Shown here one piece after another: positions 33,276 to 59,100 of a stretch of DNA of 64,000 bases. Where the stretch lies: positions 6,624,001 through 6,688,000 of the forward strand of contig CP068257.2 in assembly GCA_009914755.4 (NCBI GenBank). Reading direction: 5' to 3'. Made by a program: the position numbers and the translations under genes. The DNA is from the human T2T-CHM13v2.0 reference genome, Homo sapiens. The notes under the pieces were generated by a model. The model saw only the letters and a program-made list of their open reading frames with translations. It had not been told where the DNA came from and made no database searches. Numbering within the stretch: the stretch's first letter is position 1; each line of letters begins with the position of its first letter.

Positions 33276-35699
33276 GTAGAAGACTTGAGTAAGGCAAATA
33301 CAGTCCCCCTAAATTTGACTATTATTTAGGTTAATGGTGAGTTTAGAAGAAATAAGTTAAGACTACACAGAGTGGGCTAAAGTGCAAATAAACACTGGAA
33401 ATATTTCCCAGAAAATATGACTTTGAACAGGCTGCTGCACACCCTGCATGTAGAGATAAACTAAGAAAAATGTCTGGAGAGTTATTTAAGGACCTCTGGT
33501 TAACTCAGTCCTCAAGATGTTCTGGGTTTCATCCATGAATCAAGAAGGACCTCCCAAAAGCTGTTTGGGACCACACTCTTTGAGCAATGAGCACACCTTA
33601 CGATGGAAGCTGTGCTTTAGCGGCAGATGACCATTTCCACTGCACAACACACCATGCTTTAGCGGAAGATGACCGTTTCCACTGCACAACACTACAAGTG
33701 GTTACTGCCAGGCCGGTGTGAAATATGTTCCAGCACATAATCTATGTCACCAATGAAGGTGGTGGTTCGGACTTGGTGCACACAATCTTTCCTGTCCCAC
33801 AAGAACACAGCATACTCTCTTCTCGGGTTCCATTCCAATTACATAACAAATATGACTGCCTTTTTTGTCTCGGCATCAGAAAGATCAGAGGAAAATTTGC
33901 ACCCAACTTAGACAACTCTAAGCTCTTATAACCTGCCTATATCTACATGTCAGCTTTATCTTATTTATGTATATTTCCTTCAACCTGAGTTTTACTTATT
34001 TCTACTTTTCCTTTTTAATTCACAGACACCCATAAACTCAGAAAATACAGTGTAAAACAAAGTGAAGAACAAGTAAGCAACTCACCAGAGATTTATTCGT
34101 TCCCTGTTGCTCTTGGAAACACCCAGAGGACACTGGAAACATAGCTGGGATAGAAGGCAAATGACTTGGATTAAGGAGAGAACTGGTGTGGTGTGGTCCC
34201 AGATTCTTCTGCCCAACGCTCTAGACACATTACCTGGGAAAGCCCTCCTCCCTCCTGAAAAAGAAAAACTTCCCCAGGGGAGAAGAGTCCTTCACGCCTC
34301 ATTAGGGGCAGCAGAGGCTCAAGTTAAGATACATAGACAAGTACATTAATTGGTAGACATTAGATGCACAATTTATTTTTGAATAAATATATGTATTACC
34401 TACTAATTTAGTAACAATATTATCTAAAGATATAATCTAATAATTTAATACAAAGAAACATTATAAGTTCACTAAAATAAATGTTATAGAAATATACTGG
34501 GCTGTATTAACTATTTTCCTATTAATATGTAGATTCCACAAATAACTTCATATGAGTGTTCCCGTGACAGTACCTCTTGCTTTTCTATACCTGAACATCA
34601 TGGAAAGTGCATCTTGCAAACCAGCAATTTTGGCCTACAATTACGTTTTTTAAAATGTACATAATGCGTATTTCCTACAGTATCCCATTCTACTCATGTT
34701 TCCCAATAACACCTTTCCTTCTATCCAAGCCCTCATATTATGCTCTGACAATAAATTGGGCTTTTCCATCTGACTTGTCCAGTGAATGGACAATGGAAAA
34801 TGTGATGCAAATATCCATTGGTTCTTCCCTTTTTGGGAGAAATTGTGAAGAGGTCTGGAGCTACCCTGTTGGAGACACAGGGCCTAGCCAAGAGTCACCA
34901 CAAACCACCAGATAGTGAAGGAAACTATCTTAAACCAACCAGGCTCAGTCAACGCACCAGGTGACTAAGGCCTTTTTGTGATCCAGGCAACACAAATATA
35001 TCAACTACCCAGGTGAATCCACCACACCAAAATGCAGATCCACAGAACTTCAAACAAATAAAATGGTGGTTGTTTTTTATAAGCCAGTAAGGTTTAATTA
35101 GTTCCTTAAACAGCAAGTATTAACTGTTACACCTAAGTGAACAGAATTCACTTCTGTGTTTTCAACAAAATTATGTAGGGGGAGAAAATCTTAAATTACA
35201 AATCAAATACAATCAATAGAACTTCGCAATCTAATGCTAAATTTGGTGATGGACTAGGTTTAATATATTTCAGACGCGAAAAAACGAGCTAAGATTGAAG
35301 GAATGGGACTGTGTTTGGAGAGTATTTTAATCCTCTCAAGTATGACAGGTCACTCCTGAACCCCAGACCACACTTTCAGGCCCCTTCAAATAAGGAATAT
35401 TTCCTAAGTCCTTGCCTGTTTTTCTCAGCTGAATTCACCTCAACCTTCTGAAAGTTCGTCCAAACCTTCTACTATCACCTAGTCTTTGCAAATCTTGTGC
35501 ATTCTAGGGAGTAGAATTAATATTTCCTGAGCAAGGAAAACTGGGATCTTCACCTGTGTCCTTTTTTCCTCCTCTGAAGCACCAGGGAGAGGTTAGACCA
35601 GATGGCTGTTCTTTCAAGTGTGCTTCTTATTCATAGGGAACCCTCCCTTTCAAACTTTGTAACACACAGTTAAGACTGAAGTACCCTTAAGGCTGACGA

Positions 35700-36520
35700 C
35701 CATCATCTATTACGCCATCTCCCTCGCGGAATCAGTGAGTTCTTCCCTGGAAACTAGGTCTCGTATAAACTTCTGTAAATGCGACCCAGGAGGACTAGGC
35801 AGGTCACACAGTGAAGGAGGGAACCAGAAACTTCACTTGCTAAAGAGACACCAGGAAACCCAACTAATACAAACGTCAAGTTTAAGACTAGAGGCGCACG
35901 CGTTTCACACTACTCCTCTGGGAATGGGGAACGTCTCCCAAGAACTGTGTGTTAGCACTGGGACAGATGGGCAAACTGAGCATCATGCGGGTTGGTAACT
36001 GGGTCCCTCAGCAGCAGGACAGGAGCGCGGCCTGCAGACTCCGGGCCCAGGGCCACCGGCCTCTCCTACCCGCTCCTGTGCCTCTAGAACCCGCTTCACT
36101 GCTGGGACCCCACCCCTGTCCTCCCAGCCCCTGCCAGGGTCCGCAGCCCGCACCTGCTCTTCAGGCCCTGCCCTCCCGCGATGCGCCCACGCGTCTGCTC
36201 CCACAACTAGGGAACACTGGTCCGGCCTCCTGGGATCCCCTGAGGCCCACGGGTTCCTCTTGACCCTTGCACCGACCCACAGGGACATAGAACCAAGCCC
36301 CACGCCGGCCCAGCTACAGGACCGCCTCTGGGTGCCACACTTCCGGAGGAAAATGGCGGAGTGGGCCGGGCAGCGCTTGTGCAGAGAGAAAAGCTGGTTC
36401 CCAAGGTCCTTGATGGTAACATCATTGGAAGGTGACACTACAATTCCCATGAGGCTTTGCGGTCCCCCTTTAGGAACCCACGCCAGACATTCTGTTTTGC
36501 CCAGCAGTTGAGTCCAGTTA
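35700..36520. promoter_or_regulatory. CpG-island-like GC-rich segment with an ETS (CTTCCGG) plus YY1-like (AAAATGGCGG) core at about 36330-36360; a candidate TATA-less, possibly bidirectional, promoter
   Basis: CpG density is retained (cgcg, acgcgt, gcgcacgcg), unlike the surrounding CpG-depleted DNA. 'cacttccggaggaaaatggcggagtgggccgggcagcgc' is present. Confidence 0.4.
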
Positions 36521-36683
36521 CCCAGAGACCCAGACTTAATGTATCAGGACTGGTCCCTACCCAGTTGACACAGATGTGGCATTCTGGTTCTTTATTAAAT
36601 ACTGGTTTCACAGCCTGGGACATTGTGAAAATAATGGAGAAATTTCAATAGAGGCCAATTGGTCTATGCTATGAATGAGTAAC

Positions 36684-36985
36684 TTTTTTTTTTTTTTGAG
36701 ACGGAGTCTCACTCTGTCGCCCAGGCTGGAATGTAATGGTGTGATCTTGGCTCACCGCAACCTCCGCTTCCCGGGTCCAAGTGATTCTCCTGCCTCAGCC
36801 TCCTAAGTACCTGGGATTACAGGCGCGTGCCACCACACTCCACACTCGCCTAATTTTTGTATTTTTAGTAGAGACTGGTTTTCACCATGTTGGTCAGGCT
36901 GGTCTCCAACTCCTGACCTCGTGATCCACCCTCCTCAGCCTCCCAAGGTGCTGGGATTACAAGCGTGAGCCACTGTGCCCAGCCC
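36684..36985 (-). mobile_element. Alu
   Basis: Poly-T then 'gagacggagtctcactctgtcgcccaggctggaatgtaatggtg…gccactgtgcccagcc'. Confidence 0.9.
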
Positions 36986-38903
36986 TCAAGTCTATTTTTT
37001 ATAGATGCATTCGAAAGCATGAAAAAAATCATGTCTCTATTTTACTTTAAAATTTTAAAAACACAACTAATGAATATGGTAATTCTCTTCCAATCTGTTA
37101 TCTTCTCTCTCACTAAACTAATTTGTGAGCCTTCAATTTACACAGTTAGAAAATATGCTCTAGTGCATATACTAGGATAAAATAACAGGGTCATAAGACA
37201 GGTGCACTCCATAATCTTTGTGACAACTTTCACTTCCAGTGTCTGATAAATATTTGCCTGTAGACTCCCACATTTCATCCATCCATCCATCAATCAAATC
37301 TACCTATCTTTATTTATTTATTGTGAGAAAGACCTGAAATTTGCCTTTCCTTCCCTGATTTCTGCCACAAACTAGGCAAGGAGTTCTGCCTAGGGGTTTC
37401 TCAGAGCTCTGGCTACCACCGAGGTTCCTAACAGGGAAACGCAGGCTTGAATGCTCAGGGTTGATGTGGGAGTGCGTGTGAAACGGGGGTGGGGTGAAAG
37501 GGCAGTGACGTTTGTAGGTGGGCAGATGGGGGTGTTGATAGGCTTTCAGGTAAGAGGCACGCAGGAAACTGGGAGAGGCAGCGAAAGCACCTCACACCTC
37601 AGATCACCAGAAGACGCTCCCACCAGTGCCATGACAGTTTGCCAATGCCATGGCATCACGAGAAGTCCCCACCCCTTGCCATGGAAACAGATGGAAGTTA
37701 CTGCCCATTTCTAGCTATTTCTGAATAACCCGCCCCTTAATTAGCATGCCATTAAAAGTGAATTATAAAAGTGACTACAAGCCAACCCTAGGCTGCTGCT
37801 CTGGGAGCACAACCCACAGAGGGCTCCCTGCCCTGCCGGAGTGGATGCAGGGTTGTAACACCGCCAATGCCTCCATAGAGCTGCTTTCTTCCACCACAGG
37901 CTTGCTTTTGGATTTCTTCCTGAGCGACGCCAAGAACCTGCCCTTCCTCAGTGTGACTCTTGCCTAAAACCTATCCCTGGTATTCTCTTTTCCTAAGCAT
38001 GCCCTGACTTGTTCTTTCATCTCCTCTGATCTTGCAATTGGTCCTCAGTGACTCTATTCTGCAGATCCAGAAAACTCAACCTTAATCTTCCCAGAGCACT
38101 GTTGTCTCTAATATTGGAATCTATAGCCTTGTTTTCTCAGACGCCTAGATTACAGGCCTCTCTCTTGAACACCTATTGGTATGGTATCTGGGGATCCTTT
38201 AAGTACTTGATGATTGGCAGGGGTTAAATAGCGGAAATCAGTGAATGACAATTCGCCTTCCAGGATATGGACTGTCATTCCCTCTCTTGGTGGGCCTCAG
38301 TCTCTTATCCATAAAAGTAGAGATTGTAATACTCATTTGAATTGCAGATACCTCAACCCAAACCCACCTAATATAATGTAAAAGCCAAGAATGCAACCTC
38401 TTTCCTCACCCCGTGAAGGTAAAGCCCTCAGAGCCAAGGAGAGAAGGCTCAGGGATGGTATCTGGGTGTTTCCAACGCTAACCATGTATTGTACTTTTTT
38501 GTGTTCAAGTTTAAGCTTCCCCAGCTTTAATTCTATTGTAACAAGATTTATTTTTCTAATTCCATTTTTGGATTCTTGATTTATTGGTAAAGAAATACAG
38601 TTATTTTTGTATACCAATCTTACATAGTGTTACATTCTTAAATTTGTTCATGAGTCCTAATACTTTTTAGTAAATTTCTTACGATTTTCTAAATGCAAGA
38701 TCATGTCATCTGTACATAAAGATAACTGTACTTCTTCTTTTCCAATCTAGATGCTGTTTATTTATTTACATTGCCAAATTGTCCCAGCTACCACTGTTAT
38801 CAAGTAAAAGGGTCTCACTGCCCAAAGCACAAGAAGCCAGTACCATGACACTGAGTTTTCGAGAAAAGAAAATGTTTAAAGTCAAACCAAAACCTAGGGT
38901 AGA

Positions 38904-41010
<2,107 letters not shown>

Positions 41011-44000
41011 ATGGAATGGAACGGAAAGGAATCAACCTGAGTGGAATGGATTGGAATGGAAAGGAATGGAATGGAATTCAATGGAATGGAATTCAATGGA
41101 ATGGAATCAAATGGAAAGGAATGGAATGGAATGGAATGGAATGGAATGGAATGGAATGGAAGGGAATCAACCCGAGAGGAATGGATTGCAATGGAATGGA
41201 GTTATCCTGAGTGGAATGGAATGGAATGGAATCATCCGAGTGGAATGGAATGGAAGGGAATGCAATGGAATGGAATGGAATAGAATTAACACGAGTGACA
41301 TGGAATGGAAAGGAATGGAATAGAATTGAATGGAATGGAATCCACCCGAGTGGAATGGAATGGCATGGAATGCAATGGAATTGAACGGAATATAATGGAA
41401 TTAAATGGAATCATCCCGAGTGGAATGGAATGGTATCTAATGCAATGGAATGGAATGGAGCAGAACGGAATGGAATGGAAAGAATAGATTGAATCCAAGT
41501 GGAATTGAATGGAATGGAATGGATTGGAAAGGAATGGAATGGATTGGAATGGATTGGAATGGAAAGGAATGGATTCAACCCAAGTGGAATGTAATAGATT
41601 GGAATGGAAAGGAATAGAATGGAATGGAATGGAATGGAATCAACACGAATGGAATGGAACGGAATGGAATGGAATGGAATGGAATGGAATGGAATGGTAT
41701 GGAATGAAATGGAAAGGAACGGCATAGAATCAACAAAAGTGGAATGGAATGGAATGGAATGGAAGGGAATCAACACGAGTGGAATGGAATGGAAAGGAAT
41801 GCAATGGAATGGAATGGAATGGAATCAACCCGAGTGGAGTAGAAGGGAATGGAATGGAAACAACCCCAGTGGAATGGAATGGAATGGAATGCAATAGAAT
41901 GGAATGGAATGGAATGGAATGGAATTCAATGGAATCAACCCGAGTGGAAAGGAATGGTTTGGAATGCAATGGAATGGAGTTTAACAGAACGGAATGGAAT
42001 GGAATGGAATTGATTGAATCCGAGTGGAATTGAATGGAAGGGAATGCATTGGAAAGGAATGGAAAGGATTCAACCCGAGTGGAATGTAATGGATTGGAAT
42101 GGAGTGGAATGGAATTGAATGGAATGGAATGGAATGGAATCAACAGAAATGGAATGGAATGGAATGCAATGGAATAGAATGGAACGGAATGGAATGCAAT
42201 GGAAGAGAATGGAATGCAATGAAATGGAATAAACCCGAATGGAATGGAATGGAATGGAATGCAATGGAATGGAATGGAATGCAATGGAATGGAATGGAAT
42301 GCAATGGAATGGAATGGAATGGAATGGAATGGAATGGAATGGAATGGAATGGAATGAATTGTGATAAACCCGAATGGAATGGAATGGAATGGAATGGAAT
42401 GGAATGGAATGGAATGGAAAGGAGTGGAATGAAATAAACACCAGTGGAATGAAACGGAATAAAATGGAATGGAATGGAATGGAATGGAATGGAATGGAAA
42501 GGAATGAAATCTAGTCGAGTAGAATGGAACGGAATGCAATGGAATGGAATGGAAAGGAATGGAATCAACTGAAATGGAATGAAATGGAATGGAACGGAGT
42601 GGAATGGAATGGAAAGCAAAGGAATCAATAAGAGTGAAAAGCTATGGAATGGAACGGAATGGAATGGAATGGAGTGGAATGGAATCAACCCAAGTGGAGT
42701 GAAATAAAATGAAATGGAATTGAATGGAATCAACATGAGTGGAATTGAATGGAATGGAATGGAATGGAATGGTATCAACCAGAGTGGAATGGAATTGAAA
42801 GGAATGGAACGGAATGGAATGCAATGGAATCAACTGGAATGGAATGGAATGGAATGGAATGGAATGGAATGGAATGGAACGGAATCAACCTCAGTCAAAT
42901 AGAATGGAATGGAATTGAATGGAATGGAATGGAATGGAATGGAAACTACTGGAATGGAATGGAAACAACAAGAGTGGAATGGAATGCAAAGGAATGGAAT
43001 GGAATGGAATGGAATGTAAAGGAATGGAATGGAATCAACCTGACTGGAATGGAATGGAATGGAAAGGAATGAATGGAATGGAATGGAATAGAATGGAATT
43101 GTATGAAATGCAATGGTATGGAATTTAATGGAATGGAATGGAACGGAACGGAATGGAATGGAATTGACCCCAATGGAATGGAACGGAATGGAATGGATTG
43201 GAATGGAATGGAACGGAATTAACCCGAGTGGAACGGAATGTTATGGAATGGAGTGGAATGGAATGGAATGGAATGAAATGGAATGGAACAGAATCGAAAC
43301 CAATGGAATCAACTGGAATGGAATGGAATGGAATGGAATGGAATCAATCCGGGTGGAATGGAATGGTATGGAATACAATAGAATGGAATGGAATGGAATG
43401 GAATGGAATTCAATGGAATCAACCCCAGTGGAATAGAATGGTATGGAATGCAATGGAATGGAGTGGAACAGAACGGAATGGAATGTAATGGAATTGATTG
43501 AATCCGAGTGGAATTGAATGGAAGGGAATGCATTGGAAAGGAATGGAAAGGATTCAACCCGAGTGGAATGCAATGGATTGGAATGGAGTGGAATGGAATG
43601 GAATGGAAAGGAATGGAATGGAATGGAATCAACACAAATGGAATGGAATGGAATGGAATAGAATGGAAAGGAATGGAATGCAATGGAATCTAATGGAATG
43701 GAATGAAATGGAATAAACCCGAATGGAATGGAATGGAATGAAATGGAATGGAATGAAGTGGAATAAAGCCGAATGGAATGGAATGGAATGGAATGGAATG
43801 GAATGGAATGGAATGGAATGGAATGGAGTGGAATGGAATAAACACCAGTGGAATGAAATGGAATGGAATGGAATGGAATGGAAAGGAATGGAATGGAATG
43901 GAATAGAAAGGAATGAAATCAACCCGAGTAGAATGGAACAGAATGGAATGGAATGGAATGGAATGGAATGGAATGGAATGGAATGGAAAGGAATGGAATC

Positions 44001-45547
44001 AACTGGAATGGAATGAAATGGACTGGAATGGAGTGGAATGGAATAGAATGCAGTGGAATCAACAAGAGTGAAATGCAATGGAATGGAATGGAATGGAATC
44101 AACCCGAGTGGAGTGAAATAAAATGGAATGGAATGGAATGGAATGGAATGGAATGGAATGGAATGGAATGGAATGGAATGGAATAGCATGCAATCAACTT
44201 TGGTGGAATGGAATGGAATAGCATGCAATCAACTTTGGTGGAATGGTATGGAATGGTATGGAATGGAATGGAATGGAGTGGTACGGAATGGAATGGAATA
44301 AAAGGGCATGGAATGGAGTGGAATCAACCCGAGAGGAATGGAATGGAATGGAATGGAATGGAATGGAATGGAATGGAATGGAAATGAATCAAACCGAGTG
44401 GAATGGAATGGAATGGAGTGGAATGGAAACAATGCAAAGCAATGGTATCAACGGGAATGGAATGCATTGGAATGGAATGGAATGGAATCACCCTGAGTGG
44501 ATAGGAATGGAATGGAAGGGAATGGAAAGGAATGGAATGGAATGGAACCTAATGGAATGGAATTTAAACAACCCGAGTGGAACGGAATGGAATGGAATGG
44601 AATGGAATGGAATGGAATGGAATGGAATGGAATAAACACCAGTGGAATGAAATGGAATGGAATGGAAAGGAATGCAATGGAATAGAATGGAATGGAATGG
44701 AATGGAATGGAATGGAATGGAATGGAATGGAATCAACCCGAGTGGAGTAGAAAGGAATGGAATGGAATGGAATCAACCCCAGTGGAATGGAATGGAATGG
44801 AATGCAATAGAATGGAAAGGAATGGAATGGAATGGAATTCAATGGAATTAACCCGACAGGAATGGAATGGTATGGAATCCAATGGAATGGAGTGGAACAG
44901 AACGGAATGGAATGGAATGGAATTGACTGAATCCGAGTGGAATTGAATGGAACGGAATGCATTGGAAAGGAATGGAAAGGATTCAACCCGAGTGGAATGT
45001 AATGGATTGGAATGTAGTGGAATGGAATGGAATGGAATGGAATCAACACAAATGGAATGGAATGGAATGGAATGGAATGGAATAGAATGGAAAGGAATGC
45101 AATGCAATGGAATGGAATGGAATGGAATGAAATGGAATAAACCCGAAAGGAATGGAATGGAATGGAATGGAATGGAATGGAATGGAATGCAATGAATTGG
45201 AATAAACCCGAATGGAATGGAATGGAATGGAATGGAATGGAATGGAATGGAGTGCAATGGAATAAACACCAGTGGAATGAAATGGAATGGAATGGAATGG
45301 AATGGAATGGAATGGAATGGAATGGAATGGAATGGAATGAAATCAACCCGAGTAGAATGGAACAGAATGGAATGGAATGGAATGGAATGGAAAGGAGTGG
45401 AATCAACTAGAATGGAATGAAATTTAATGGAATGGAGTGGAATGGAATGGAATGCAATGGAATCAACAAGAGTGAAATGCAATGGAATGGAATGCAATGG
45501 AATCAACTAGAGTGAAATGCAATGGAATGGAATGGAATGGAATGGAA

Positions 45548-48500
45548 TCAACCCGACTGGAGTGAAATAAAATGGAATGGAATGGAATGGAATGGAATAA
45601 AATGGAATGGAATGGAATGGAAACAACGCGAGTGGAATGGAATGGAATGGAAGGGAGTAACCAGAGAGGAATGGAATGGAAAGGAGTGAAATGGAATGGA
45701 ATAGAATGGAATGGAATGGAATGGAATGGAATGGAATAGAATGAAAGGGAAAGGAATGGAATGGAAATAACCCCAGTGGAATGGAATGGATTGGAATGGA
45801 ATGGAATGGAATGGAATCAACCCCAGTTGAATGGAATGCAATGGAATGGAACGGAATATAATGGAATGGAACGGAAGCATCCCGAGTGCAATGGAATGGT
45901 ATGGAATGCAACAGAATGGAATGGAACAGAACGGAATGAAATGGGATGGAATAGATTGATTGCGAGTGGAATGGAATGCAATGGAATGGAATGGAATGGA
46001 ATGGAACGCATTGGAATGGATTGGAATGGAAAGGAATGGATTCAACCCGATTGGAATGTAATTGATTGGAATGGAATGGAATGGAATGGAATGGAATGGA
46101 ATGGAATGGAATGGAATGGAATCAACACGAATGGAATGGAACGGAATGGAATGGAATGGAATGGAATGAAAGGGAAAGGAACAGAATAGAATCAACCCAA
46201 GTGGAATGGAATGGAATGGAATGGAAGGGAATCAACACGAGTGGAATGGAATGGAAAGGAATGCAATGGAATGGAATGGAATGGAATGGAATGGAATGGA
46301 ATGGAATGGAATGGAATCAACCCGAGTGGAGTAGAATGGAATGGAATGGAATCAACCCCAGTGGAATGGAATGGAATGGAATGCAATAGAATTGAATGGA
46401 ATGGAATGGAACGGAATTCAATGGAATCAACCCAAGTGGAATGGAATGGTATGGAATGCCATGGAATGGAGTGGAACAGAACGGAATGGAATGGAATGGA
46501 ATTGATTGAATCCGAGTGGAATTGAATGGAAGGGAATGCATTGGAAAGGAATGGAAAGGATTCAACCCGCGTGGAATGTAATGGATTGGAATGGAGTGGA
46601 ATGGAATGGAATGGAATGGAGTGGAATGGAATCAACACAAATGGAATGGAATAGAATGGAAAGGAATGGAATGCAATGGAATGGAATGCAATGGAATGGA
46701 ATGAAATGGAATAAACCGGAATATAATGGAATGGAATTAAATGGAATAAACCGGAATGTAATGCAATGGAATGGAATGGAATGGAATGGAATGGAATGGA
46801 ATGGAATGAATTGGAAAAAACCCGAATGGAATGGAATGGAATGGAATGGAATGGAAGGGAATGGAAACTACTGGAATGGAATGGAAACAACCCGAGTGGA
46901 ATGGAATGCAATGGAATGCAATGGAATGGAATGGAATGGAATGGAATGGAATGGAATGGAATGGAATGTAAAGGAATGGAATGGAATAGAATGGAATTGT
47001 ATGGAATGCAATGGTATGGAATTGTATGGAATGGAACGGAACGGAACGGAATGGAATGGAATTCACCCCAATGGAATTGAATGGAATGGAATGGATTGGA
47101 ATGCAATGGAACGGAATTAACCCGAGTGGAATGGAATGTAATGGAATGGAGTGGAATGTAATGGAATGGAGTGGAATGTAATGTAAAGGAATGGAGTGGA
47201 ATGTAATGGAATGGAGTGGAATGGAATGGAATGTAAAGGATTGGAATGGAATGGAATGGAGTGGAATGGAGTGGAATGGAATGGAATGGAATCAACCCGA
47301 ATGGAATGGAACGGAATGGAATGGAATGGAATGGAATGGAATGGAAAGGAATGGAATGCAACGGAATAGAATGGAATCAACCCGAATGGGTTGGAATGAA
47401 ATGGAATGGAATGTAACGGAATGGAATGGAATGGAATGGAATGGAATGGAAAGGAATGGAATGCAACGGAATAGAATGGAATCAACCCGAATGGGTTGGA
47501 ATGAAATGGAATGGAATGAAATGGAATGGAATGATATGGAATCAACCGGAGTGTAATGTAAATGAATGGAATGGAATGGAATGGAATAGAATGGAATGGA
47601 ATGGAATGCTATGGAGTCAACAAGAGTGGAATGGAATGGAATGGAATGGAATGCAATGCAATGGAATGGAATGCAATGGAATGGAATGGAATGGAATGGA
47701 ATGAACCCAAATGGAGTGGAATGGAACGGAATGCAATGGAATGGAATGGAATAACATGCAATCACCTTTGGTGGAATGGAATGGAATGGAATGGAATGGA
47801 ATGGAATGGAATCAACCAGAGTGGACTGCAACGGAATAAAATGGAATGGAATGGAACTGAATGGAACGGAACGGAACGGAATTGAATACAATGGAATCAA
47901 CCCAAGTGGAAAGGAATGGAATGGAATGGAATGGAATGGAATAACATGCAATCAATGTTGGTGGAATGGCATGGAATGGTATGGAATGGAATGGAATGGA
48001 ATGGAATGGAATGGAATGGTATGGAATGGAATGGAATAAAAAGGCATGGAATGGAATGGAATCAACCCGAGGGGAATGGAATGGAATGGAATGGAATGGA
48101 ATGGAATGGAATGGAAATGAAGCAAACCGAGTCGAATGGAATGGAATGGAATGGAATGGAATGGAAACAATGCAATGCAGTGGTATCAACGCGAATGGAA
48201 TGCATTGGAACGGAATGGAATGGAATCACCCTGAATGGATAGGAATGGAATGGAAAGGAATGGAAAGGAATGGAATGGAATGGAAACTAATGGAATGGAA
48301 TGGAAAAAACTCGAGTGGAATGGAATGGAATGGAATGGAATGGAATGGAATGGAATACAACAAAATGGAAACAACCCGAGTGGAATGGCATGGAATGGAA
48401 AGGACCTGAATATAATGGAAAGGATTGGAATCAACGCGATTAGAAACTAATGGAATGGAATGGAATGGAAGGGAATGGAATGGAATGGAATGGAATGGAA

Positions 48501-50848
48501 TGGAAAGGAATCTACTCGAGTGGAATGGAATGTAATGGAATTAAATGGAATGGAATGGAATGGAAAGGAATGGAATGGAATCCACCCGAGTGGAATGGAA
48601 TGGAATGGAATGCAATGGAATTGAACGGAATATAATGGAATTCAATGGAATCATCCCGAGTGGAATGGAATGGTATCTAATGCAATGGAATGGAACGGAA
48701 CAGAACGGAATGGAATGGAAATAATAGATTGAATCCAAGTGGAATTGAATGGAATGGAATGGATTGGAAAGGAATGGAATGGATTGGAATGGATTGGAAT
48801 GGAATGGAATGGAATGGAATGGAATGGAATCAACACGAATAGAATGGAACGGAATGGAATGGAATGGAATGGAATGGTATGGAATGAAATGGAAAGGAAC
48901 GGAATAGAATCAACCCAAGTGGAATGGAATGGAATGCAATGGAAGGGAATCAACACGAGTGGAATGGAATGGAAAGGAATACAATGGAATGGAATGGAAT
49001 GGAATGGAATGGAATGGAATGGAATCAACCCGAGTGGAGTAGAATGGAATAGAATGGAATCAACCGCAGTGGAATGGAATGGAATGGAATGGAATAGAAT
49101 GGAATTCAATGGAATCAACCCGAGTGGAATGGAATGGTATGGAATGCAATGGAATGGAGTGGAACAGAACGGAATGGAATGGAATGGAATTGATTGAATC
49201 CGAGTGGAATTGAATGGAAGGGAATGCGTTGGAAAGGAAAGGAAAGGATTCAACCCGAGTGGAATGTAATGGATTGGAATGGAGTGGAATGGAATGGAAT
49301 GGAATGGAATGGAATGGAATGGAATGGAATGAATTGGAATAAACCCGAATGGAATGGAATGGAATGGAATTTAATGGTGTGGAATGGAATAAACACCAGT
49401 GGAATGGAATGGAATGGAATGGAATGGAATGGAATGGAATTGAATGGAAAGGAATGAAATCAACCCGAGTAGAATGGAACAGAATGGGATGGAATGGAAT
49501 GGAATGGAAATGAATGGAATCAACTGGAATGGAATGAAATGGAATGGAATGGAGTGGAATGGAATGGAATGCATTGGAATCAACAAGAGTGAAATGCAAT
49601 GGAAAGGAATGGAATGGAATGGAATGGAATAGAATGGAATCACCCGAGTGGAGAGAAATAAATTGGAATGGAATGGAATGGAATCAACCTGAGTGGAACG
49701 GAATGGAATGGAATGGAATGGAACGGAATGGAATGCAATGGAATGGAATGGAATGGAAACTACTGGAATGGAATGGAAACAACCCGAGTGGAATGAAATG
49801 CAAAGGAATGGAATGGAGTGGAATGGAATGGAACGGAATGGAATGGAATTGAATGGAATGGAGTCAACACAAGTGGAAAGGAATGGAATGGAATGGAATG
49901 GAATGGAATGGAATGGAATGGAACGGAATAAACACCAGTGGAATGAAATGGAATGGAATGGAATGGAATGGAATGGAATGGAATGGAATGGAATGGAAAG
50001 GAATGAAATCAACCCGAGTAGAATGGAACGGAATGGAATGGAATGGAATGGAATGGAATGGAAAGGAATGGAATCAGCTGGAATGGAATGAAATGGAATG
50101 GAATGGAGTGGAATGGAATGGAATGCAATGGAATCAACAAGAGTGAAATGCAATGGAATGGAATGGAATGGAATGGAATGGAATGGAATGGAATGGAATG
50201 GAATTGAATCAACCCGAGTGGAGTGAAATAAAATGAAATGGAATGGAATGGAATCAACCTAAGTGGAACGGAATGGAATGTAATGGAATCGAATGGAATG
50301 GAATGGAATGCAATGGAATCAACTGGAATGGAATTGAATGGAATGGAATGGAATGGAATGGAATGGAAAGGAACGGAATCATCCTGAGTCAAATAGAATG
50401 GAATGGAATGGAATCGAATGGAATGGAATGGAATGGAATGGAATGGAATGGAATGGAATGGAAACTACTGGAATGGAATGGAAACAACCCGAGTGGAATG
50501 GAATGCAATGGAATGGAATGGAGTGGAATGGAAAGGAATGGAATGGAATCAACACGAGTGGACTGCAACGGAATGAAATGGAATGGAATGCAATGGAATG
50601 GAATGGAATGGAATGGAACGGAACGGAACGGAATTGAATGGAATGGAATCAACCCAAGTGGAAAGGAATGGAATGGAATGGAATGGAATGGAAAGGAATG
50701 GAATCAACTAGAATGGAATGAAATTTAATGGAATGGAGTGGAATGGAATGGAATGCAATGGAATGAACAAGAGTGAAATGCAATGGAATGGAATGCAATG
50801 GAATCAACTAGAGTGAAATGCAATGGAATGGAATGGAATGGAATGGAA
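45548..50848 (+). repeat. HSat3 higher-order repeat, copy 1 (about 5.3 kb)
   Basis: The marker 'gggagtaaccagagagg' sits at 45653 and 50954 (offset 5301). Long translated stretches of the two copies are identical or differ by 1 aa (e.g. track ORFs 45548..46195 vs 50849..51346; 46211..46525 vs 51497..51811; 48651..49253 vs 53862..54800). Confidence 0.85.
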
Positions 50849-53800
50849 TCAACCCGACTGGAGTGAAATAAAATGGAATGGAATGGAATGGAATGGAATA
50901 AAATGGAATGGAATGGAATGGAAACAACGCGAGTGGAATGGAATGGAATGGAAGGGAGTAACCAGAGAGGAATGGAATGGAATGGAGTGAAATGGAATGG
51001 AATAGAATGGAATGGAATGGAATGGAATGGAATGGAATAGAATGAAAGGGAAAGGAATGGAATGGAAATAACCCCAGTGGAATGGAATGGATTGGAATGG
51101 AATGGAATGGAATGGAATCAACCCCAGTTGAATGGAATGCAATGGAATGGAACGGAATATAATGGAATGGAACGGAAGCATCCCGAGTGCAATGGAATGG
51201 TATGGAATGCAACAGAATGGAATGGAACAGAACGGAATGAAATGGGATGGAATAGATTGATTGCGAGTGGAATGGAATGCAATGGAATGGAATGGAATGG
51301 AATGGAACGCATTGGAATGGATTGGAATGGAAAGGAATGGATTCAACCCGATTGGAATGTAATTGATTGGAATGGAATGGAATGGAATGGAATGGAATGG
51401 AATGGAATGGAATCAACACGAATGGAATGGAACGGAATGGAATGGAATGGAATGGAATGAAAGGGAAAGGAACAGAATAGAATCAACCCAAGTGGAATGG
51501 AATGGAATGGAATGGAAGGGAATCAACACGAGTGGAATGGAATGGAAAGGAATGCAATGGAATGGAATGGAATGGAATGGAATGGAATGGAATGGAATGG
51601 AATCAACCCGAGTGGAGTAGAATGGAATGGAATGGAATCAACCCCAGTGGAATGGAATGGAATGGAATGCAATAGAATTGAATGGAATGGAATGGAACGG
51701 AATTCAATGGAATCAACCCAAGTGGAATGGAATGGTATGGAATGCAATGGAATGGAGTGGAACAGAACGGAATGGAATGGAATGGAATTGATTGAATCCG
51801 AGTGGAATTGAATGGAAGGGAATGCATTGGAAAGGAATGGAAAGGATTCAACCCGCGTGGAATGTAATGGATTGGAATGGAGTGGAATGGAATGGAATGG
51901 AATGGAGTGGAATGGAATCAACACAAATGGAATGGAATAGAATGGAAAGGAATGGAATGCAATGGAATGGAATGCAATGGAATGGAATGAAATGGAATAA
52001 ACCGGAATGTAATGGAATGGAATTAAATGGAATAAACCGGAATGTAATGTAATGTAATGGAATGGAATGGAATGGAATGGAATGGAATGAATTGGAAAAA
52101 ACCCGAATGGAATGGAATGGAATGGAATGGAATGGAAGGGAATGGAAACTACTGGAATGGAATGGAAACAACCCGAGTGGAATGGAATGCAATGGAATGC
52201 AATGGAATGGAATGGAATGGAATGGAATGGAATGGAATGGAATGTAAAGGAATGGAATGGAATAGAATGGAATTGTATGGAATGCAATGGTATGGAATTT
52301 AATGGAATGGAACGGAACGGAACAGAATGGAATGGAATTCACCCCAATGGAATTGAATGGAATGGAATGGATTGGAATGCAATGGAACGGAATTAACCCG
52401 AGTGGAATGGAATGTAATGGAATGGAGTGGAATGTAATGGAATGGAGTGGAATGTAATGTAAAGGAATGGAGTGGAATGTAATGGAATGGAGTGGAATGG
52501 AATGGAATGTAAAGGATTGGAATGGAATGGAATGGAGTGGAATGGAGTGGAATGGAATGGAATGGAATCAACCCGAATGGAATGGAACGGAATGGAATGG
52601 AATGGAATGGAATGGAATGGAAAGGAATGGAATGCAACGGAATAGAATGGAATCAACCCGAATGGGTTGGAATGAAATGGAATGGAATGTAACGGAATGG
52701 AATGGAATGCAATGGAATGGAATGGAATGGAAAGGAATGGAATGCAACGGAATAGAATGGAATCAACCCGAATGGGTTGGAATGAAATGGAATGGAATGA
52801 AATGGAATGGAATGATATGGAATCAACCGGAGTGTAATGTAAATGAATGGAATGGAATGGAATGGAATAGAATGGAATGGAATGGAATGCTATGGAGTCA
52901 ACAAGAGTGGAATGGAATGGAATGGAATGGAATGCAATGCAATGGAATGGAATGCAATGGAATGGAATGGAATGGAATGGAATGAACCCAAATGGAGTGG
53001 AATGGAACGGAATGCAATGGAATGGAATGGAATAACATGCAATCACCTTTGGTGGAATGGAATGGAATGGAATGGAATGGAATGGAATCAACCAGAGTGG
53101 ACTGCAACGGAATAAAATGGAATGGAATGGAACTGAATGGAACGGAACGGAACGGAATTGAATACAATGGAATCAACCCAAGTGGAAAGGAATGGAATGG
53201 AATGGAATGGAATGGAATAACATGCAATCAATGTTGGTGGAATGGCATGGAATGGTATGGAATGGAATGGAATGGAATGGAATGGAATGGAATGGTATGG
53301 AATGGAATGGAATAAAAAGGCATGGAATGGAATGGAATCAACCCGAGGGGAATGGAATGGAATGGAATGGAATGGAATGGAAACAATACAATGCAGTGGT
53401 ATCAACGCGAATGGAATGCATTGGAACGGAATGGAATGGAATCACCCTGAATGGATAGGAATGGAATGGAAAGGAATGGAAAGGAATGGAATGGAATGGA
53501 AACTAATGGAATGGAATGGAAAAAACTCGAGTGGAATGGAATGGAATGGAATGGAATGGAATGGAATACAACAAAATGGAAACAACCCGAGTGGAATGGC
53601 ATGGAATGGAAAGGACCTGAATATAATGGAAAGGATTGGAATCAACGCGATTAGAAACTAATGGAATGGAATGGAATGGAAGGGAATGGAATGGAATGGA
53701 ATGGAATGGAATGGAAAGGAATCTACCCGAGTGGAATGGAATGTAATGGAATTAAATGGAATGGAATGGAATGGAAAGGAATGGAATGGAATCCACCCGA

Positions 53801-56150
53801 GTGGAATGGAATGGAATGGAATGCAATGGAATTGAACGGAATATAATGGAATTCAATGGAATCATCCCGAGTGGAATGGAATGGTATCTAATGCAATGGA
53901 ATGGAACGGAACAGAACGGAATGGAATGGAAAAAATAGATTGAATCCAAGTGGAATTGAATGGAATGGAATGGATTGGAAAAGAATGGAATGGATTGGAA
54001 TGGATTGGAATGGAATGGAATGGAATGGAATGGAATGGAATCAACACGAACAGAATGGAACGGAATGGAATGGAATGGAATGGAATGGTATGGAATGAAA
54101 TGGAAAGGAACGGAATAGAATCAACCCAAGTGGAATGGAATGGAATGCAATGGAAGGGAATCAACACGAGTGGAATGGAATGGAAAGGAATACAATGGAA
54201 TGGAATGGAATGGAATGGAATGGAATGGAATGGAATCAACCCGAGTGGAGTAGAATGGAATAGAATGGAATCAACCGCAGTGGAATGGAATGGAATGGAA
54301 TGGAATAGAATGGAATTCAATGGAATCAACCCGAGTGGAATGGAATGGTATGGAATGCAATGGAATGGAGTGGAACAGAACGGAATGGAATGGAATGGAA
54401 TTGATTGAATCCGAGTGGAATTGAATGGAAGGGAATGCGTTGGAAAGGAATGGAAAGGATTCAACCCGAGTGGAATGTAATGGATTGGAATGGAGTGGAA
54501 TGGAATGGAATGGAATGGAATGGAATGGAATGGAATGAATTGGAATAAACCCGAATGGAATGGAATGGAATGGAATTTAATGGTGTGGAATGGAATAAAC
54601 ACCAGTGGAATGGAATGGAATGGAATGGAATGGAATGGAATTGAATGGAAAGGAATGAAATCAACCCGAGTAGAATGGAACAGAATGGGATGGAATGGAA
54701 TGGAATGGAAATGAATGGAATCAACTGGAATGGAATGAAATGGAATGGAATGGAGTGGAATGGAATGGAATGCATTGGAATCAACAAGAGTGAAATGCAA
54801 TGGAAAGGAATGGAATGGAATGGAATGGAATAGAATGGAATCACCCGAGTGGAGAGAAATAAATTGGAATGGAATGGAATGGAATCAACCTGAGTGGAAC
54901 GGAATGGAATGGAATGGAATGGAACGGAATGGAATGCAATGGAATGGAATGGAATGGAAACTACTGGAATGGAATGGAAACAACCCGAGTGGAATGAAAT
55001 GCAAAGGAATGGAATGGAGTGGAATGGAATGGAACGGAATGGAATGGAATTGAATGGAATGGAGTCAACACAAGTGGAAAGGAATGGAATGGAATGGAAT
55101 GGAATGGAATGGAATGGAATGGAATGGAATGGAACGGAATAAACACCAGTGGAATGAAATGGAATGGAATGGAATGGAATGGAATGGAATGGAATGGAAT
55201 GGAATGGAAAGGAATGAAATCAACCCGAGTAGAATGGAACGGAATGGAATGGAATGGAATGGAATGGAATGGAAAGGAATGGAATCAGCTGGAATGGAAT
55301 GAAATGGAATGGAATGGAGTGGAATGGAATGGAATGCAATGGAATCAACAAGAGTGAAATGCAATGGAATGGAATGGAATGGAATGGAATGGAATGGAAT
55401 GGAATGGAATTGAATCAACCCGAGTGGAGTGAAATAAAATGAAATGGAATGGAATGGAATCAACCTAAGTGGAACGGAATGGAATGTAATGGAATCGAAT
55501 GGAATGGAATGGAATGCAATGGAATCAACTGGAATGGAATTGAATGGAATGGAATGGAATGGAATGGAATGGAAAGGAACGGAATCATCCTGAGTCAAAT
55601 AGAATGGAATGGAATGGAATCGAATGGAATGGAATGGAATGGAATGGAATGGAATGGAATGGAATGGAAACTACTGGAATGGAATGGAAACAACCCGAGT
55701 GGAATGGAATGCAATGGAATGGAATGGAGTGGAATGGAATGGAATGGAATGGAATCAACACGAGTGGACTGCAACGGAATGAAATGGAATGGAATGCAAT
55801 GGAATGGAATGGAATGGAATGGAACGGAACGGAACGGAATTGAATGGAATGGAATCAACCCAAGTGGAAAGGAATGGAATGGAATGGAATGGAATGGAAT
55901 GGAATGGAATGAAATAGCATGCAATCAAATTTGGTGGAATGGTATGGAATGGTATTGAATGGAATGGAATGGAATGGAATTGTATGGAATGGAATGGAAT
56001 TTAACCGAGTGGAAAGGAATGTAATGAAATTAAATGGTATGGAATGGAATGGAATGGAATGGAATGGAATGTACCCGAGTGGAATGGAATGGAATGGAAT
56101 TTAATGGAATGGAATGGAATAGAATGATATGGAATCAACCCGAGTGGAAT
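50849..56150 (+). repeat. HSat3 higher-order repeat, copy 2 (about 5.3 kb, about 99% identical to copy 1)
   Basis: Same markers at +5301. A diverged 'ggagtaaccggagagg' at 56251 (+5296) marks the start of a third, more diverged unit. Confidence 0.85.
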
Positions 56151-59100
56151 GGTATAGAATGGAACGTAATGGAACGGAATGGAATGGAATAAAATGGAAT
56201 GGAATGGAATGGAATGGAAACTACCCGAGTGGAGTGGAATGGAATGGAATGGAGTAACCGGAGAGGAATGGAATGGAATGGAGTGGAATGTAATGGAATA
56301 GAATGGAATGGAATGGAATAGAATAGAATGAAATGGAAAGGAACGGAATGGAAATAACCCGAGTGGAATGGAATGGAATGGAATGGAATGGAATGGAATG
56401 GAATGGAATGGAATCAACCCCAGTTGAATGGAATGGAATGGAATGGAATTTAACGGAATATAATGGAATGGAACGGAATCATCCTGAATGGAATGGAATG
56501 GTATGGATTGCAACAGAATGGAATGGAACAGAACGGAATGAAATGGAATGGAATAGATTGAATGCGAGTGGAATGGAATGGATTGGAATGGAATGGAACG
56601 GATTGGAGTGGAATGCAATGGAATCAACACCAATGGGATGGAACGGAATGGAATGGAATGGAACGGAATGGAATGGAATGGAACGGAATGGAATCAACCC
56701 GATTGGAATGGAATGGAATGGAATGGAATCCACCCGAGTGGAATAGAATGGAATGGAATGCAATGGAATTGAACGGAATATAATGGAATTAAATGGAATC
56801 ATCCCGAGTGGAATGGAATGGTATCTAATGCAATTTAATGGAATGGAGCAGAATGGAATGGAATAGAAAGAATAGATTGAATCCAAGTGGAATTGAATGG
56901 AATGGAATGGATTGGAAAGGAATGGAATGGAATGGATTGGAATGGAATGGAATGGAAAGGAATGGATTCAACCCCAGTGGAATGTAATGGATTGGAAAGG
57001 AATGGAATGGAATGGAATGGAATGGAATGGAATCAACACGAATGGAATGGAACGGAACGGAATGGAATGGAATGGAATGGTATTGAATGAAATGGAAAGG
57101 AACGGAATAGAATCAACCCAAGTGGAATGGAATGGAATGGAATGGAATGGAATGGAATGGAATGGAATGGAATGGAATCAACCCGAGTGGAGTAGAATGG
57201 AATGGAATGGAATCAACCCCAGTGGAATGGAATGGAATGGAATGCAATAGAATGGAAAGGAATGGAATGGAATGGAATTCAATGGAATCAACCCGAGTGG
57301 AAAGGAATGGTATGGAATGCAATGGAATGGAGTGGAATGGAATGGAATCAACGCGAGTTGAATGGAATGGAATGGAATGGAACGGAATATAATGGAATGG
57401 AACGGAATCATCCCGAGTGGAATGGAATGGTATGGAATGCAATAAAACGGAAAGGAACAGAACGGAATGAAATGGAATGGAATAGATTGAATGCTAGTGG
57501 AATTCAATGGAATGGAATGGATTGGAATGGAATGGAATGGATTGGAGTGGAATGGAATGGAATCAACACGAATGGGATGGAACGGAATGGAACGGAATGG
57601 AATGGAATGGAATAGAATGGAATGAAATGGAATGGAATGGAATCAACCCGAGTGGAATGGAATGGAATGGAATGGAATCCACCCGAGTGGAATGGAATGG
57701 AATGGAATGCAATGGAATTGAACGGAATATAATGAAATTAAATGGAATCATCCCGAGTGGAATGGAATGCTATATAATGCAATGGAATGGAATGGAACAG
57801 AACGGAATGGAATGGAAAGAACAGATTGAATCCAAGTGGAATTGAATGGAATGGAATGGATTGGAAAGGAATGGAATGGATTGGAATGGATTGGAATGGA
57901 AAGGAATGGATTCAACCCGAGTGGAATGTAATGGATTGGAATGGAATGGAATGGAATGCGATGGAATGGAATGGAATGGAATCAAAAAGAATGGAATGGA
58001 ACGGAATGGAATGGATTAGAATGGAATGGAATGGAATGGAATGGAATGAAATCAACCCGAGTAGAATGGAACAGAATGGAATGGAATGGAATGGAATGGA
58101 AAGGAATGGAATCAACTAGAATGGAATGAAATTTAATGGAATGGAGTGGAATGGAATGGAATGCAATGGAATCAACAAGAGTGAAATGCAATGGAATGGA
58201 ATGGAATGGAATGGAATGGAATGGAATGGAATGGAATCAACCCGACTGGAGTGAAATAAAATGGAATGGAATGGAATGGAATGGAATGGAATAAAATGGA
58301 ATGGAATGGAATGGAAACAACGTGAGTGGAATGGAATGGAATGGAATGGAGTAACCAGAGAGGAATGGAATAGAATGGAGTGAAATGGAATGGAATAGAA
58401 TGGAATGGAATGGAATGGAATGGAATAGAATGAAAGGTAAAGGAATGGAATGGAAATAACCCGAGTGGAATGGAATGGAATGGAATGGAATGGAATGGAA
58501 TGGAATGGAAGCAACCCCAGTTGAATGGAATGCAATGGAATGGAACGGAATATAATGGAATGGAACAGAAGCATCCCGAGTGCAATGGAATGGTATGGAA
58601 TACAACAGAATGGAATGGAACAGAACGGAATGAAATGGGATGGAATAGATTGATTGCGAGTGGAATGGAATGCAATGGAATGGATTGGAATGGAATGGAA
58701 CGCATTGGAATGGATTGGAATGGAAAGGAATGGATTCAACCCGATTGGAATGTAATTGATTGGAATGGAATGGAATGGAATGGAATGGAATGGAATGGAA
58801 TGGAATCAACACGAATGGAATGGAACGGAATGGAATGGAATGGAATGGAATGGAATGAAATGGAAAGGAACAGAATAGAATCAACCCAAGTGGAATGGAA
58901 TGGAATGGAATGGAAGGGAATCAACACGAGTGGAATGGAATGGAAAGGAATGCAATGGAATGGAATGGAATGGAATGGAATGGAATGGAATGGAATGGAA
59001 TCAACCCGAGTGGAGTAGAATGGAATGGAATGGAATCAACCCCAGTGGAATGGAATGGAATGGAATGCAATAGAATTGAATGGAATGGAATGGAACGGAA

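What the first reader, a model, noticed from the sequence alone, without database searches (positions are those of the whole stretch)
35700..36520. Isolated CpG-island-like segment with an ETS plus YY1 promoter core next to heterochromatin
Within otherwise CpG-depleted, repeat-derived DNA this approximately 0.8-kb segment keeps many CpGs and has the composite 'CACTTCCGGAGGAAAATGGCGG' (ETS GGAA core plus YY1 CCAT core on the opposite strand), the signature of housekeeping-type TATA-less promoters. No downstream exon could be recognised. Neither the 155-aa minus-strand ORF (35983..36450) nor the plus-strand ORF starting MAEWAGQRL… resembles a protein I know. It may be the 5' end of a pericentromeric non-coding transcript or a segmentally duplicated promoter fragment of a gene located elsewhere.
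Basis: partly seen in the sequence, partly recalled or inferred. Interest (0 to 1): 0.5.

Follow-up and report, generated by a model that had tools for sequence, protein, structure and literature searches.

The report
Decaying duplicated CpG-island promoter copy
This 0.8-kb GC-rich stretch beside a satellite array is one worn-down copy of a promoter-type CpG island that was copied many times along with at least 8-9 kb of surrounding DNA, and it looks like an ordinary silenced relic, not a new gene or element.

Summary
The sequence facts hold. The 22-mer CACTTCCGGAGGAAAATGGCGG is at 36338-36359, both ORFs exist, and a (GGAAT)n HSat3-type array starts at 41009. But the segment is only a weak CpG island: GC 58.6%, 36 CpG, observed/expected (O/E) 0.52.

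An exact search for the 22-mer, plus protein look-ups, recovered 35 host-contaminant contigs. All are collinear with the window. The 19 found with the 22-mer align within about 30.3-39.3 kb, through the same Alus, at 94-97% identity. So this is one paralogue of a multicopy segmental duplication, not a transposon part.

The consensus of 19 copies is a true CpG island (61% GC, 53 CpG, O/E 0.70). It carries a compact promoter module: ETS, YY1, Sp1, inverted CCAAT and a ZNF143/THAP11 SBS2 site. The window copy is the most decayed of the 19 full-length copies. It has lost 19 of 53 CpGs and the Sp1 box.

Across copies, island CpGs decay at the same relative rate as flanking CpGs (6.0-fold in both). 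This is the signature of germline methylation.

Neither ORF is coding. I could not name the family; it carries no FRG1 exons. Verdict: an ordinary, probably silenced promoter relic.

The parts
35700..36520 (.). Decayed copy of a CpG island: GC 58.6%, 36 CpG, O/E 0.52. The family consensus has 53 CpG and O/E 0.70.
30325..39323 (.). Minimum extent of the segmentally duplicated unit shared with the metagenome contigs. It includes the 35-bp minisatellite and three Alus at fixed positions.
36339..36346 (-). ETS site, CCGGAAGT on the minus strand. Invariant in every copy that covers the site, including the four old lineages.
36350..36358 (+). YY1 site AAAATGGCG. Its ATG (36353) starts the MAEWAG ORF. 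Its CpG is mutated independently in the older paralogue lineages.
36368..36373 (+). Former Sp1 box: GGGCGG in the family consensus, GGGCAG in this copy (lost through CpG decay).
36424..36428 (-). Inverted CCAAT box (ATTGG on the plus strand).
36437..36461 (+). ZNF143/THAP11 SBS2 (M4-type) site: ACTACAATTCCCATGAGGCTTTGCG.
   Evidence: 1 match, 0 of 100 shuffles; motif definition from PMC3627581
35983..36450 (-). 155-aa ORF, spurious. Intact in only 7 of 20 copies; no named or Pfam homologue.
36353..36511 (+). 52-aa ORF MAEWAGQRL.... Open in all copies but short, and without any homologue except a chimeric contig.
36148..36156 (-). Only 5' splice-site-like sequence scoring at least 4 bits inside the segment (one more lies at 35013, outside it): CAG|GTGCGG on the minus strand. 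Inference only.
36684..36984 (-). Alu inside the duplicated unit. Most short-read contigs break here.
41009..64000 (+). HSat3-type (GGAAT)n satellite with CAACCCGAGT interruptions and about 5.2-5.3 kb higher-order spacing. It abuts an old L1 fragment.

Best explanation
The segment is one paralogous copy of a TATA-less CpG-island promoter. It was carried along when a block of at least 8-9 kb was duplicated many times in primate pericentromeric DNA.

The ancestral island had about 61% GC and O/E of at least 0.70. It held a compact core module within 125 bp: an ETS site, a YY1 site, an Sp1 box, an inverted CCAAT and a ZNF143/THAP11 SBS2 site. This is the kind of module that drives ubiquitous, often bidirectional, Pol II transcription.

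In the duplicated copies the island is no longer protected from germline DNA methylation, so its CpGs are being lost by deamination at the same relative rate as bulk CpGs. The copy in this window, 4.6 kb from an HSat3 array, is the most eroded of the 19 full-length copies: 19 of 53 CpGs are gone, 14 of them as TG/CA, and the Sp1 box is destroyed. It is most likely a methylated, silent or nearly silent relic.

It encodes no protein.

Shown here: the paralogy, the ancestral island, the motifs, the decay pattern and the lack of coding signal. Inferred: past promoter activity, present methylation and silence, and the direction of any residual transcription.
For: Paralogy:
- The exact 22-mer finds 19 metagenome contigs. 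All are collinear with the window at 94-97% identity and 93-99% identical to one another, running through the same Alus.
- Sixteen more collinear contigs include lineages that are 88-93% identical overall. The four representative old lineages differ by about 3-4% at non-CpG flank sites.

Ancestral island:
- The consensus has 53 CpG, 61% GC and O/E 0.70. Full-length copies have 42-53 CpG; the window has 36, the lowest.

Decay:
- Of the 53 consensus CpGs the window keeps 34, and 14 of the 19 losses are TG/CA.
- The pooled per-site CpG to non-CpG divergence ratio is 6.0 in the island and 6.0 in the flank. The window lost 36% of island CpGs and 31% of flank CpGs.

Motifs:
- ETS, YY1, CCAAT and SBS2 are present; the consensus Sp1 box is lost in the window.
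- SBS2 has 1 match against 0 of 100 shuffles. The SBS2/M4 definition and its association with CpG-island promoters come from PMC3627581.

Not coding:
- The minus ORF is broken in 13 of 20 copies.
- It hits only anonymous ORFs on contaminant contigs.
- The plus ORF hits only a bacterial-human chimera.
- Pfam finds nothing in six-frame ORFs of 30-39.3 kb.
Against: - No transcription, methylation or factor-binding data could be consulted, so 'promoter' rests on motif content and CpG-island ancestry alone.
- The ETS, YY1 and SBS2 sites in this copy are intact, so residual activity is possible.
- The main-clade contigs were ascertained by exact match to the ETS-YY1 22-mer, which biases that motif's apparent conservation.
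- Short-read metagenome contigs of a multicopy family may be chimeric, so copy number and some per-copy statistics are approximate.
- The island shows no excess conservation over its flanks, so there is no evidence of purifying selection on the promoter in the duplicates.
- The family and its parent locus could not be named.
- No contig is 99% or more identical to the window, so the exact species or locus remains unverified.
Confidence: 0.72

Rival explanations
1. This copy is still a working promoter of a pericentromeric non-coding RNA. That RNA may be bidirectional, or expressed only in hypomethylated contexts such as testis, placenta or tumours.
For: - The ETS, YY1, CCAAT and SBS2 sites are intact and identical to the family consensus.
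- The roughly 70 bp between YY1 and SBS2 (about 36365-36436) carries only 1-3 changes per copy in the displayed copies.
- In the analogous FRG1 family, most satellite-adjacent paralogues keep CpG islands and show some expression (PMC9186530).
Against: - CpG loss equals that of bulk flanking DNA: 36% against 31% in the window, and a ratio of 6.0 against 6.0 across the family.
- The Sp1 box is lost.
- O/E is 0.52.
- On the plus strand a poly(A) hexamer lies 240 nt past the YY1 site and the splice donor is weak.
- No downstream exon or conserved ORF was found.
Confidence: 0.18
2. The segment is the GC-rich interior of an interspersed repeat (an LTR such as MLT1J, or an SVA) and not a cellular promoter.
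For: SBS2 sites are reported to occur in, and possibly derive from, MLT1J LTRs (PMC3627581).
Against: - All 35 homologous contigs share the same flanks for 0.5-9 kb, the opposite of independent insertions.
- The segment has no second copy in the window.
- It contains no tandem repeat.
- An ancient LTR could still underlie part of the ancestral island without changing the present picture.
Confidence: 0.07
3. The segment contains a protein-coding first exon, either the 155-aa minus ORF or the MAEWAG plus ORF.
For: Both ORFs are open in the window. The 52-aa plus ORF is open in all 19 copies examined. The ATG sits inside a YY1 site, as in some short-5'UTR genes (general knowledge).
Against: - The minus ORF has stops, frameshifts or a lost ATG in 13 of 20 copies.
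- Amino-acid identity to the hits (79-95%) is at or below the DNA identity.
- No named protein matched among 5.8 billion sequences.
- There is no Pfam match.
- The plus ORF is too short, and the copies too similar, for its openness to carry weight.
Confidence: 0.02

Closest known systems
FRG1 paralogue family in T2T-CHM13 (Nurk et al. 2022, PMC9186530)
   Same: A multicopy, recently amplified primate duplication whose copies lie next to satellite arrays. Nearly all copies carry a 5' CpG island, with varying methylation.
   Different: The start of the plus ORF (MAEWAG...) is not FRG1's. So this is an analogue, not a member.
ZNF143/THAP11 SBS2 (M4 motif) CpG-island promoters (PMC3627581, PMC5006282)
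   Same: A perfect 25-bp SBS2, ACTACAATTCCCA...GCNNNGCG, lies in a GC-rich island close to the ETS, YY1 and Sp1 sites. This matches the described association of ZNF143 sites with CpG-island promoters and flanking Sp1-like sites.
   Different: Binding and activity were not tested. The older paralogue lineages carry ACTACT...CC variants that depart from the M4 consensus.
YY1 plus ETS housekeeping, often bidirectional, TATA-less promoters (general knowledge; e.g. the YY1 motif just downstream of start sites, sometimes containing the start codon)
   Same: CTTCCGG followed 3 bp later by AAAATGGCGG. There is no TATA box near the motif module; the only TATAAA in the segment is at 35764, about 580 bp away.
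   Different: No start site, exon or gene can be attached. The island lies almost wholly on the 'upstream' side of the YY1 site, and the poly(A)-hexamer and splice-site layout favours the opposite strand. The direction of transcription is therefore unresolved.
Juxtacentromeric duplicated gene fragments with CpG-rich 5' ends (e.g. the BAGE and TPTE regions of chromosomes 13 and 21; from memory, not checked here)
   Same: Promoter-bearing duplications at the boundary between euchromatin and heterochromatin, methylated in most tissues.
   Different: I had no sequence of these families to compare. The resemblance is conceptual only.

Membership tests
CpG island (Gardiner-Garden & Frommer: at least 200 bp, GC at least 50%, O/E at least 0.6) | O/E of at least 0.6 over the claimed segment | tested here: not met
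   35700-36520 has GC 58.6% and O/E 0.52. Only scattered 200-bp windows pass, with a maximum of 0.67. The family consensus does pass, at 0.70 over 821 bp.
CpG island (Takai & Jones: at least 500 bp, GC at least 55%, O/E at least 0.65) | All three thresholds met in a window of 500 bp or more | tested here: not met
   No 500-bp window passes in this copy; the best O/E is 0.599. The consensus passes.
Germline-unmethylated (protected) CpG island | CpG sites evolve no faster, relative to other sites, than expected without methylation, and clearly slower than flanking CpGs | tested here: not met
   The CpG to non-CpG per-site ratio is 6.0 in the island and 6.0 in the flank across 18 copies. The window lost 36% of island CpGs against 31% of flank CpGs.
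Segmental duplication | At least 1 kb at 90% identity or more, not explained by a transposable element, with flanks and embedded repeats shared between copies | tested here: met
   The 19 contigs found with the 22-mer align to the window over 2.3-8.2 kb at 94-97% identity, through the same three Alus. The 16 further contigs are 0.5-2.1 kb and collinear. The genomic positions of the other copies are unknown.
ZNF143/THAP11 SBS2 site | A 25-bp motif: ACTACAN followed by TTCCCANNANGCNNNGCG | tested here: met
   36437-36461 matches exactly; 0 of 100 shuffles match. The motif is as defined in PMC3627581. Occupancy cannot be tested with these tools.
Active Pol II promoter | A mapped transcription start (CAGE, PRO-seq), H3K4me3 and an unmethylated state | not testable with these tools
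   No expression or epigenome data are available here.
FRG1 paralogue | Presence of FRG1 exons next to the CpG island | tested here: not met
   tblastn of FRG1 (sequence from memory) against the window gives only chance hits, all with E above 4. The positive control worked.
Interspersed repeat interior (SVA or LTR) | Copies embedded in unrelated flanks; similarity to a repeat consensus | tested here: not met
   All 35 homologous contigs share the window's flanks. The SVA consensus from memory hits only Alus. Comparison with Dfam LTR consensi such as MLT1J was not possible.
Protein-coding exon | An ORF preserved among paralogues, with homologues or domains | tested here: not met
   The minus ORF is intact in 7 of 20 copies. 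There are no named homologues and no Pfam match.
Known structured RNA gene (Rfam) | A covariance-model match | tested here: not met
   Nothing reaches the gathering score in the whole window. At E up to 1, only the Alu/SRP match and a chance KCNQ1OT1_1 hit at 13.9 bits appear.

The most novel reading that the evidence does not exclude
Copies of this promoter family sit at the edges of HSat3 arrays and act as the long-sought initiation sites for sense (GGAAU)n satellite III transcripts.

In this window the YY1-defined plus-strand direction points at a (GGAAT)n array 4.65 kb downstream. That is the same polarity as, from memory, the stress-induced SatIII RNA. Activity would appear only when the island is demethylated or under stress.
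Probability: 0.03. Interest if true: 0.6.

Novelty: new member of a known kind. Interest (0 to 1): 0.15.

Why it matters
It matters little biologically. The segment illustrates the usual fate of a CpG-island promoter copied into pericentromeric DNA: loss of methylation protection and steady CpG erosion.

Its practical value is as an annotation caveat.
- The motif content alone would make promoter predictors call this site.
- The family is multicopy, so short-read CAGE, ChIP or methylation signal will mis-map among paralogues.
- Fragments of it contaminate public metagenome assemblies and protein catalogues as anonymous 'proteins'. One of these is a chimera with a bacterial isoleucyl-tRNA synthetase.

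If some copies do fire toward HSat3 arrays, that would bear on where satellite III transcripts start. Nothing here supports that beyond orientation.

Tried and rejected
- Naming the family by protein search. The 155-aa minus ORF and the 83-aa plus ORF were searched against 5.8 billion proteins. Only anonymous contaminant ORFs and one bacterial-human chimera matched.
- Pfam on six-frame ORFs of 40 aa or more. Regions 30-39.3 kb and about 10.7-18 kb gave 0 families. The chunks covering about 0.8-10.7 kb and 18-22.4/28-30 kb were not scanned.
- FRG1 hypothesis. It was prompted by '23 paralogues near satellite arrays with CpG islands', but no FRG1 exons are present.
- chAB4 multisequence family. 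A literature search gave only passing citations, and no sequence was available to compare.
- Full-text search for the motif sequences in papers: no hits.
- Exact search of bacterial and archaeal genome contigs for the SBS2 26-mer: none found.
- Transcript evidence from Logan or ENA contigs. All recovered contigs are collinear genomic DNA and none is spliced.
- A second, divergently oriented ETS-like/YY1-like pair at 35710-35731. I considered it the other half of a bidirectional promoter. Its CGCCAT core is absent from all four old lineages, so I dropped it.
- Rfam at the gathering and E-value thresholds: only Alu/SRP.
- Splice-donor scan with a position weight matrix. One weak minus-strand site was found inside the segment, and the plus-strand ATG|GTAACA falls below threshold.
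- SVA origin.

Full report
**What is in the window.** The DNA is primate: the finding is flanked by Alus at 31556-31849, 36684-36984 (minus orientation, seen by Rfam as SRP-like) and 38903-39200. L1 ORF2-type ORFs lie at 22.9-26.8 kb and 40.1-40.5 kb. From 41009 to the end the window is a (GAATG)n array, 4,600 copies by TRF. The array has CAACCCGAGT interruptions and a spacing of about 5.2-5.3 kb between recurring 24-mers, so it is HSat3-type satellite. It begins directly inside an old L1 fragment. 'Next to heterochromatin' is therefore correct.

**Checking the observation.**
- The 22-mer CACTTCCGGAGGAAAATGGCGG is at 36338-36359 and is unique; 0 of 100 shuffles match.
- Both ORFs exist. The ATG of MAEWAGQRL is at 36353, inside the YY1 site.
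- The segment has 36 CpGs against 8.2 expected from the non-satellite 41 kb (Poisson about 9e-13) and is the densest CpG cluster there.
- Explicit calculation gives GC 58.6% and CpG O/E 0.52.
- No 500-bp window reaches 0.6, and only some 200-bp windows pass, with a maximum of 0.67 at 36177-36376.
- An Alu cluster at 6.4-7.2 kb has O/E 0.55.

**It is one copy of a multicopy segmental duplication.** An exact search for the 22-mer in public metagenome contigs returned 19 contigs. All 19 align collinearly to the window within about 30.3-39.3 kb, over 2.3-8.2 kb each, at 94-97% identity. They run through the same Alus and into the 35-bp minisatellite at 30325-31479. They are 93-99% identical to one another, and no pair exceeds 99.41% over 1.9 kb. 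So many distinct paralogues exist, although short-read assemblies of such families can be chimeric.

Look-ups through the spurious ORF brought in 16 more collinear contigs, several labelled 'human gut metagenome', which points to host contamination. Among them are older lineages that are 88-93% identical overall, and the four representative ones differ by about 3-4% at non-CpG flank sites. One of these sequences was recovered from 11 different samples, identical or nearly so.

The nearest relative of the window copy is L035. It is 98% identical in the island and shares 17 of the window's 30 derived changes. No contig is 99% or more identical to the window. The segment occurs only once in the window. 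Shared flanks in every copy argue for segmental duplication and against an interspersed-repeat origin.

**The ancestral sequence was a real CpG island with a promoter module.** The majority consensus of the 19 copies over 35700-36520 has 61% GC, 53 CpGs and O/E 0.70. Full-length copies carry 42-53 CpGs. The window copy, with 36, is the lowest. The older lineages each hold CpGs that the consensus lacks, so the ancestor was richer still.

Five motifs sit within 125 bp:
- an ETS site (CCGGAAGT on the minus strand, 36339-36346);
- a YY1 site (AAAATGGCG, 36350-36358);
- an Sp1 box (GGGCGG at 36368 in the consensus);
- an inverted CCAAT (36424);
- a perfect 25-bp ZNF143/THAP11 SBS2 site, ACTACAATTCCCATGAGGCTTTGCG (36437-36461; 0 of 100 shuffles).

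SBS2 (the M4 motif) is a characteristic element of CpG-island promoters, with Sp1-like sites around it (PMC3627581; PMC5006282). That this combination marks TATA-less housekeeping or bidirectional promoters is established knowledge. Its activity at this locus is an inference.

**The copies, and this one most of all, are decaying as methylated DNA does.**
- Relative to the consensus, the window keeps 34 of 53 CpGs. Fourteen of the 19 losses are TG or CA.
- One loss destroys the Sp1 box, which is now GGGCAG.
- Pooled over the 18 other main-clade copies, CpG positions diverge 6.0 times faster than non-CpG positions inside the island, and 6.0 times faster in 2 kb of ordinary flank.
- In the window copy, 36% of island CpGs and 31% of flank CpGs are gone.
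- A germline-unmethylated island would show protected CpGs, and this one does not.
- Between the old lineages the island ratio is somewhat lower (3.5-5.4, against 4-13 in the flank, on small numbers). This is compatible with some protection earlier in the family's history.
- Across the lineages the island is more variable than its flanks, so there is no sign of purifying selection.
- The ETS core is invariant everywhere. The CpG of the YY1 site has been hit independently in the old lineages. The SBS2 of the old lineages reads ACTACT...CC, off the M4 consensus.

**It is not coding and not a known RNA.**
- The 155-aa minus ORF is intact in only 7 of 20 copies; the rest have stops, frameshifts or a lost ATG.
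- Its only database relatives are anonymous ORFs called on contaminant contigs, at 79-95% amino-acid identity. That is at or below the DNA identity.
- The plus ORF (52 aa from the ATG) is open in all copies, but it is short and the copies are close.
- Its only database hit is a 536-nt contig that fuses a bacterial isoleucyl-tRNA synthetase N-terminus to this human sequence, an assembly chimera.
- Pfam finds nothing in six-frame ORFs of 30-39.3 kb or about 10.7-18 kb.
- Rfam finds only the Alu.

**The direction of any transcription is unresolved.** The YY1 orientation, with ATGGCGG on the plus strand, predicts plus-strand initiation near 36.33-36.35 kb, pointing at the satellite. Against that, the island lies almost entirely to the left of the module. 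The plus strand also has an ATTAAA 240 nt downstream, 14 further poly(A) hexamers before the satellite, and only a sub-threshold donor (ATG|GTAACA). The minus strand has about 1 kb free of poly(A) hexamers and the only donor-like site scoring 4 bits or more inside the segment, CAG|GTGCGG at about 36153. I considered a second ETS-like/YY1-like pair at 35710-35731 on the minus strand as the other half of a bidirectional promoter. Its core is absent from all four old lineages, so I do not rely on it.

**Comparison with what is known.** The closest documented analogue is the FRG1 family in T2T-CHM13. It has 23 paralogues, all near satellite arrays, and nearly all have upstream CpG islands with varying methylation (PMC9186530). 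This window has no FRG1 exon by tblastn, so it resembles that family in behaviour but is not a member. I could not name the family. The tools held no primate genome or repeat library, a literature search for chAB4 gave only citations, and full-text searches for the motif sequences found nothing.

**Verdict.** The sequence facts are right. The 'CpG island' label applies to the ancestor more than to this copy. This is an ordinary feature of pericentromeric duplications, so interest is low. The only unusual reading left open is that such islands launch sense HSat3 transcripts. It rests on orientation alone and is disfavoured by the poly(A)-hexamer layout.

Noticed in passing
window 30325-31479: A 35-bp minisatellite with 33 copies (consensus GAGTGACGTGCTAAACCAGAAACCCAAAACAATGG). 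It belongs to the same duplicated unit: contigs L001 and L006 align into it.
   Followed up: partly
window 33613-33692: A 42-bp unit present 1.9 times here appears to vary in copy number among paralogues. Alignments of L007, L008, L012, L015 and L018 split at this point.
   Followed up: no
window 41009-64000: The HSat3-type array shows a higher-order spacing of about 5.2-5.3 kb between recurring 24-mers, with further peaks at 1195 and about 7.4 kb. It starts abruptly inside an old L1 ORF2 fragment at 41008.
   Followed up: partly
window about 37540-37990: An LTR-like element with a TATAAAA-type box (about 37765) and an ATTAAA (37751) lies between the island and the satellite. It was not identified.
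   Followed up: no
window 18700-19500 and 21500-22500: GC-rich blocks (GC 0.55-0.62) that are CpG-poor (O/E 0.27-0.40), with long spurious ORFs on both strands. They show that GC richness alone does not give CpG retention here.
   Followed up: no
window 4-776 and 15869-16272: Two further tandem repeats: 48 bp in 16 copies at the window start, and 57 bp in 7 copies.
   Followed up: no
L036 (ENA ERZ4768450 k141_64642), protein P0015: A public metagenome contig and its catalogued 'protein' are a chimera. A bacterial isoleucyl-tRNA synthetase N-terminus (PF00133) is joined to this human island sequence.
   Followed up: yes
L025-L034 (11 samples: 1 JGI, 10 ENA): One older paralogue lineage was recovered from 11 unrelated metagenome samples with the same 178-aa ORF, and 99.6-100% identical DNA in the three pairs compared. 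It is about 88-92% identical to the window and its island O/E is 0.66-0.72. It may be a homogeneous high-copy or ancestral locus.
   Followed up: partly
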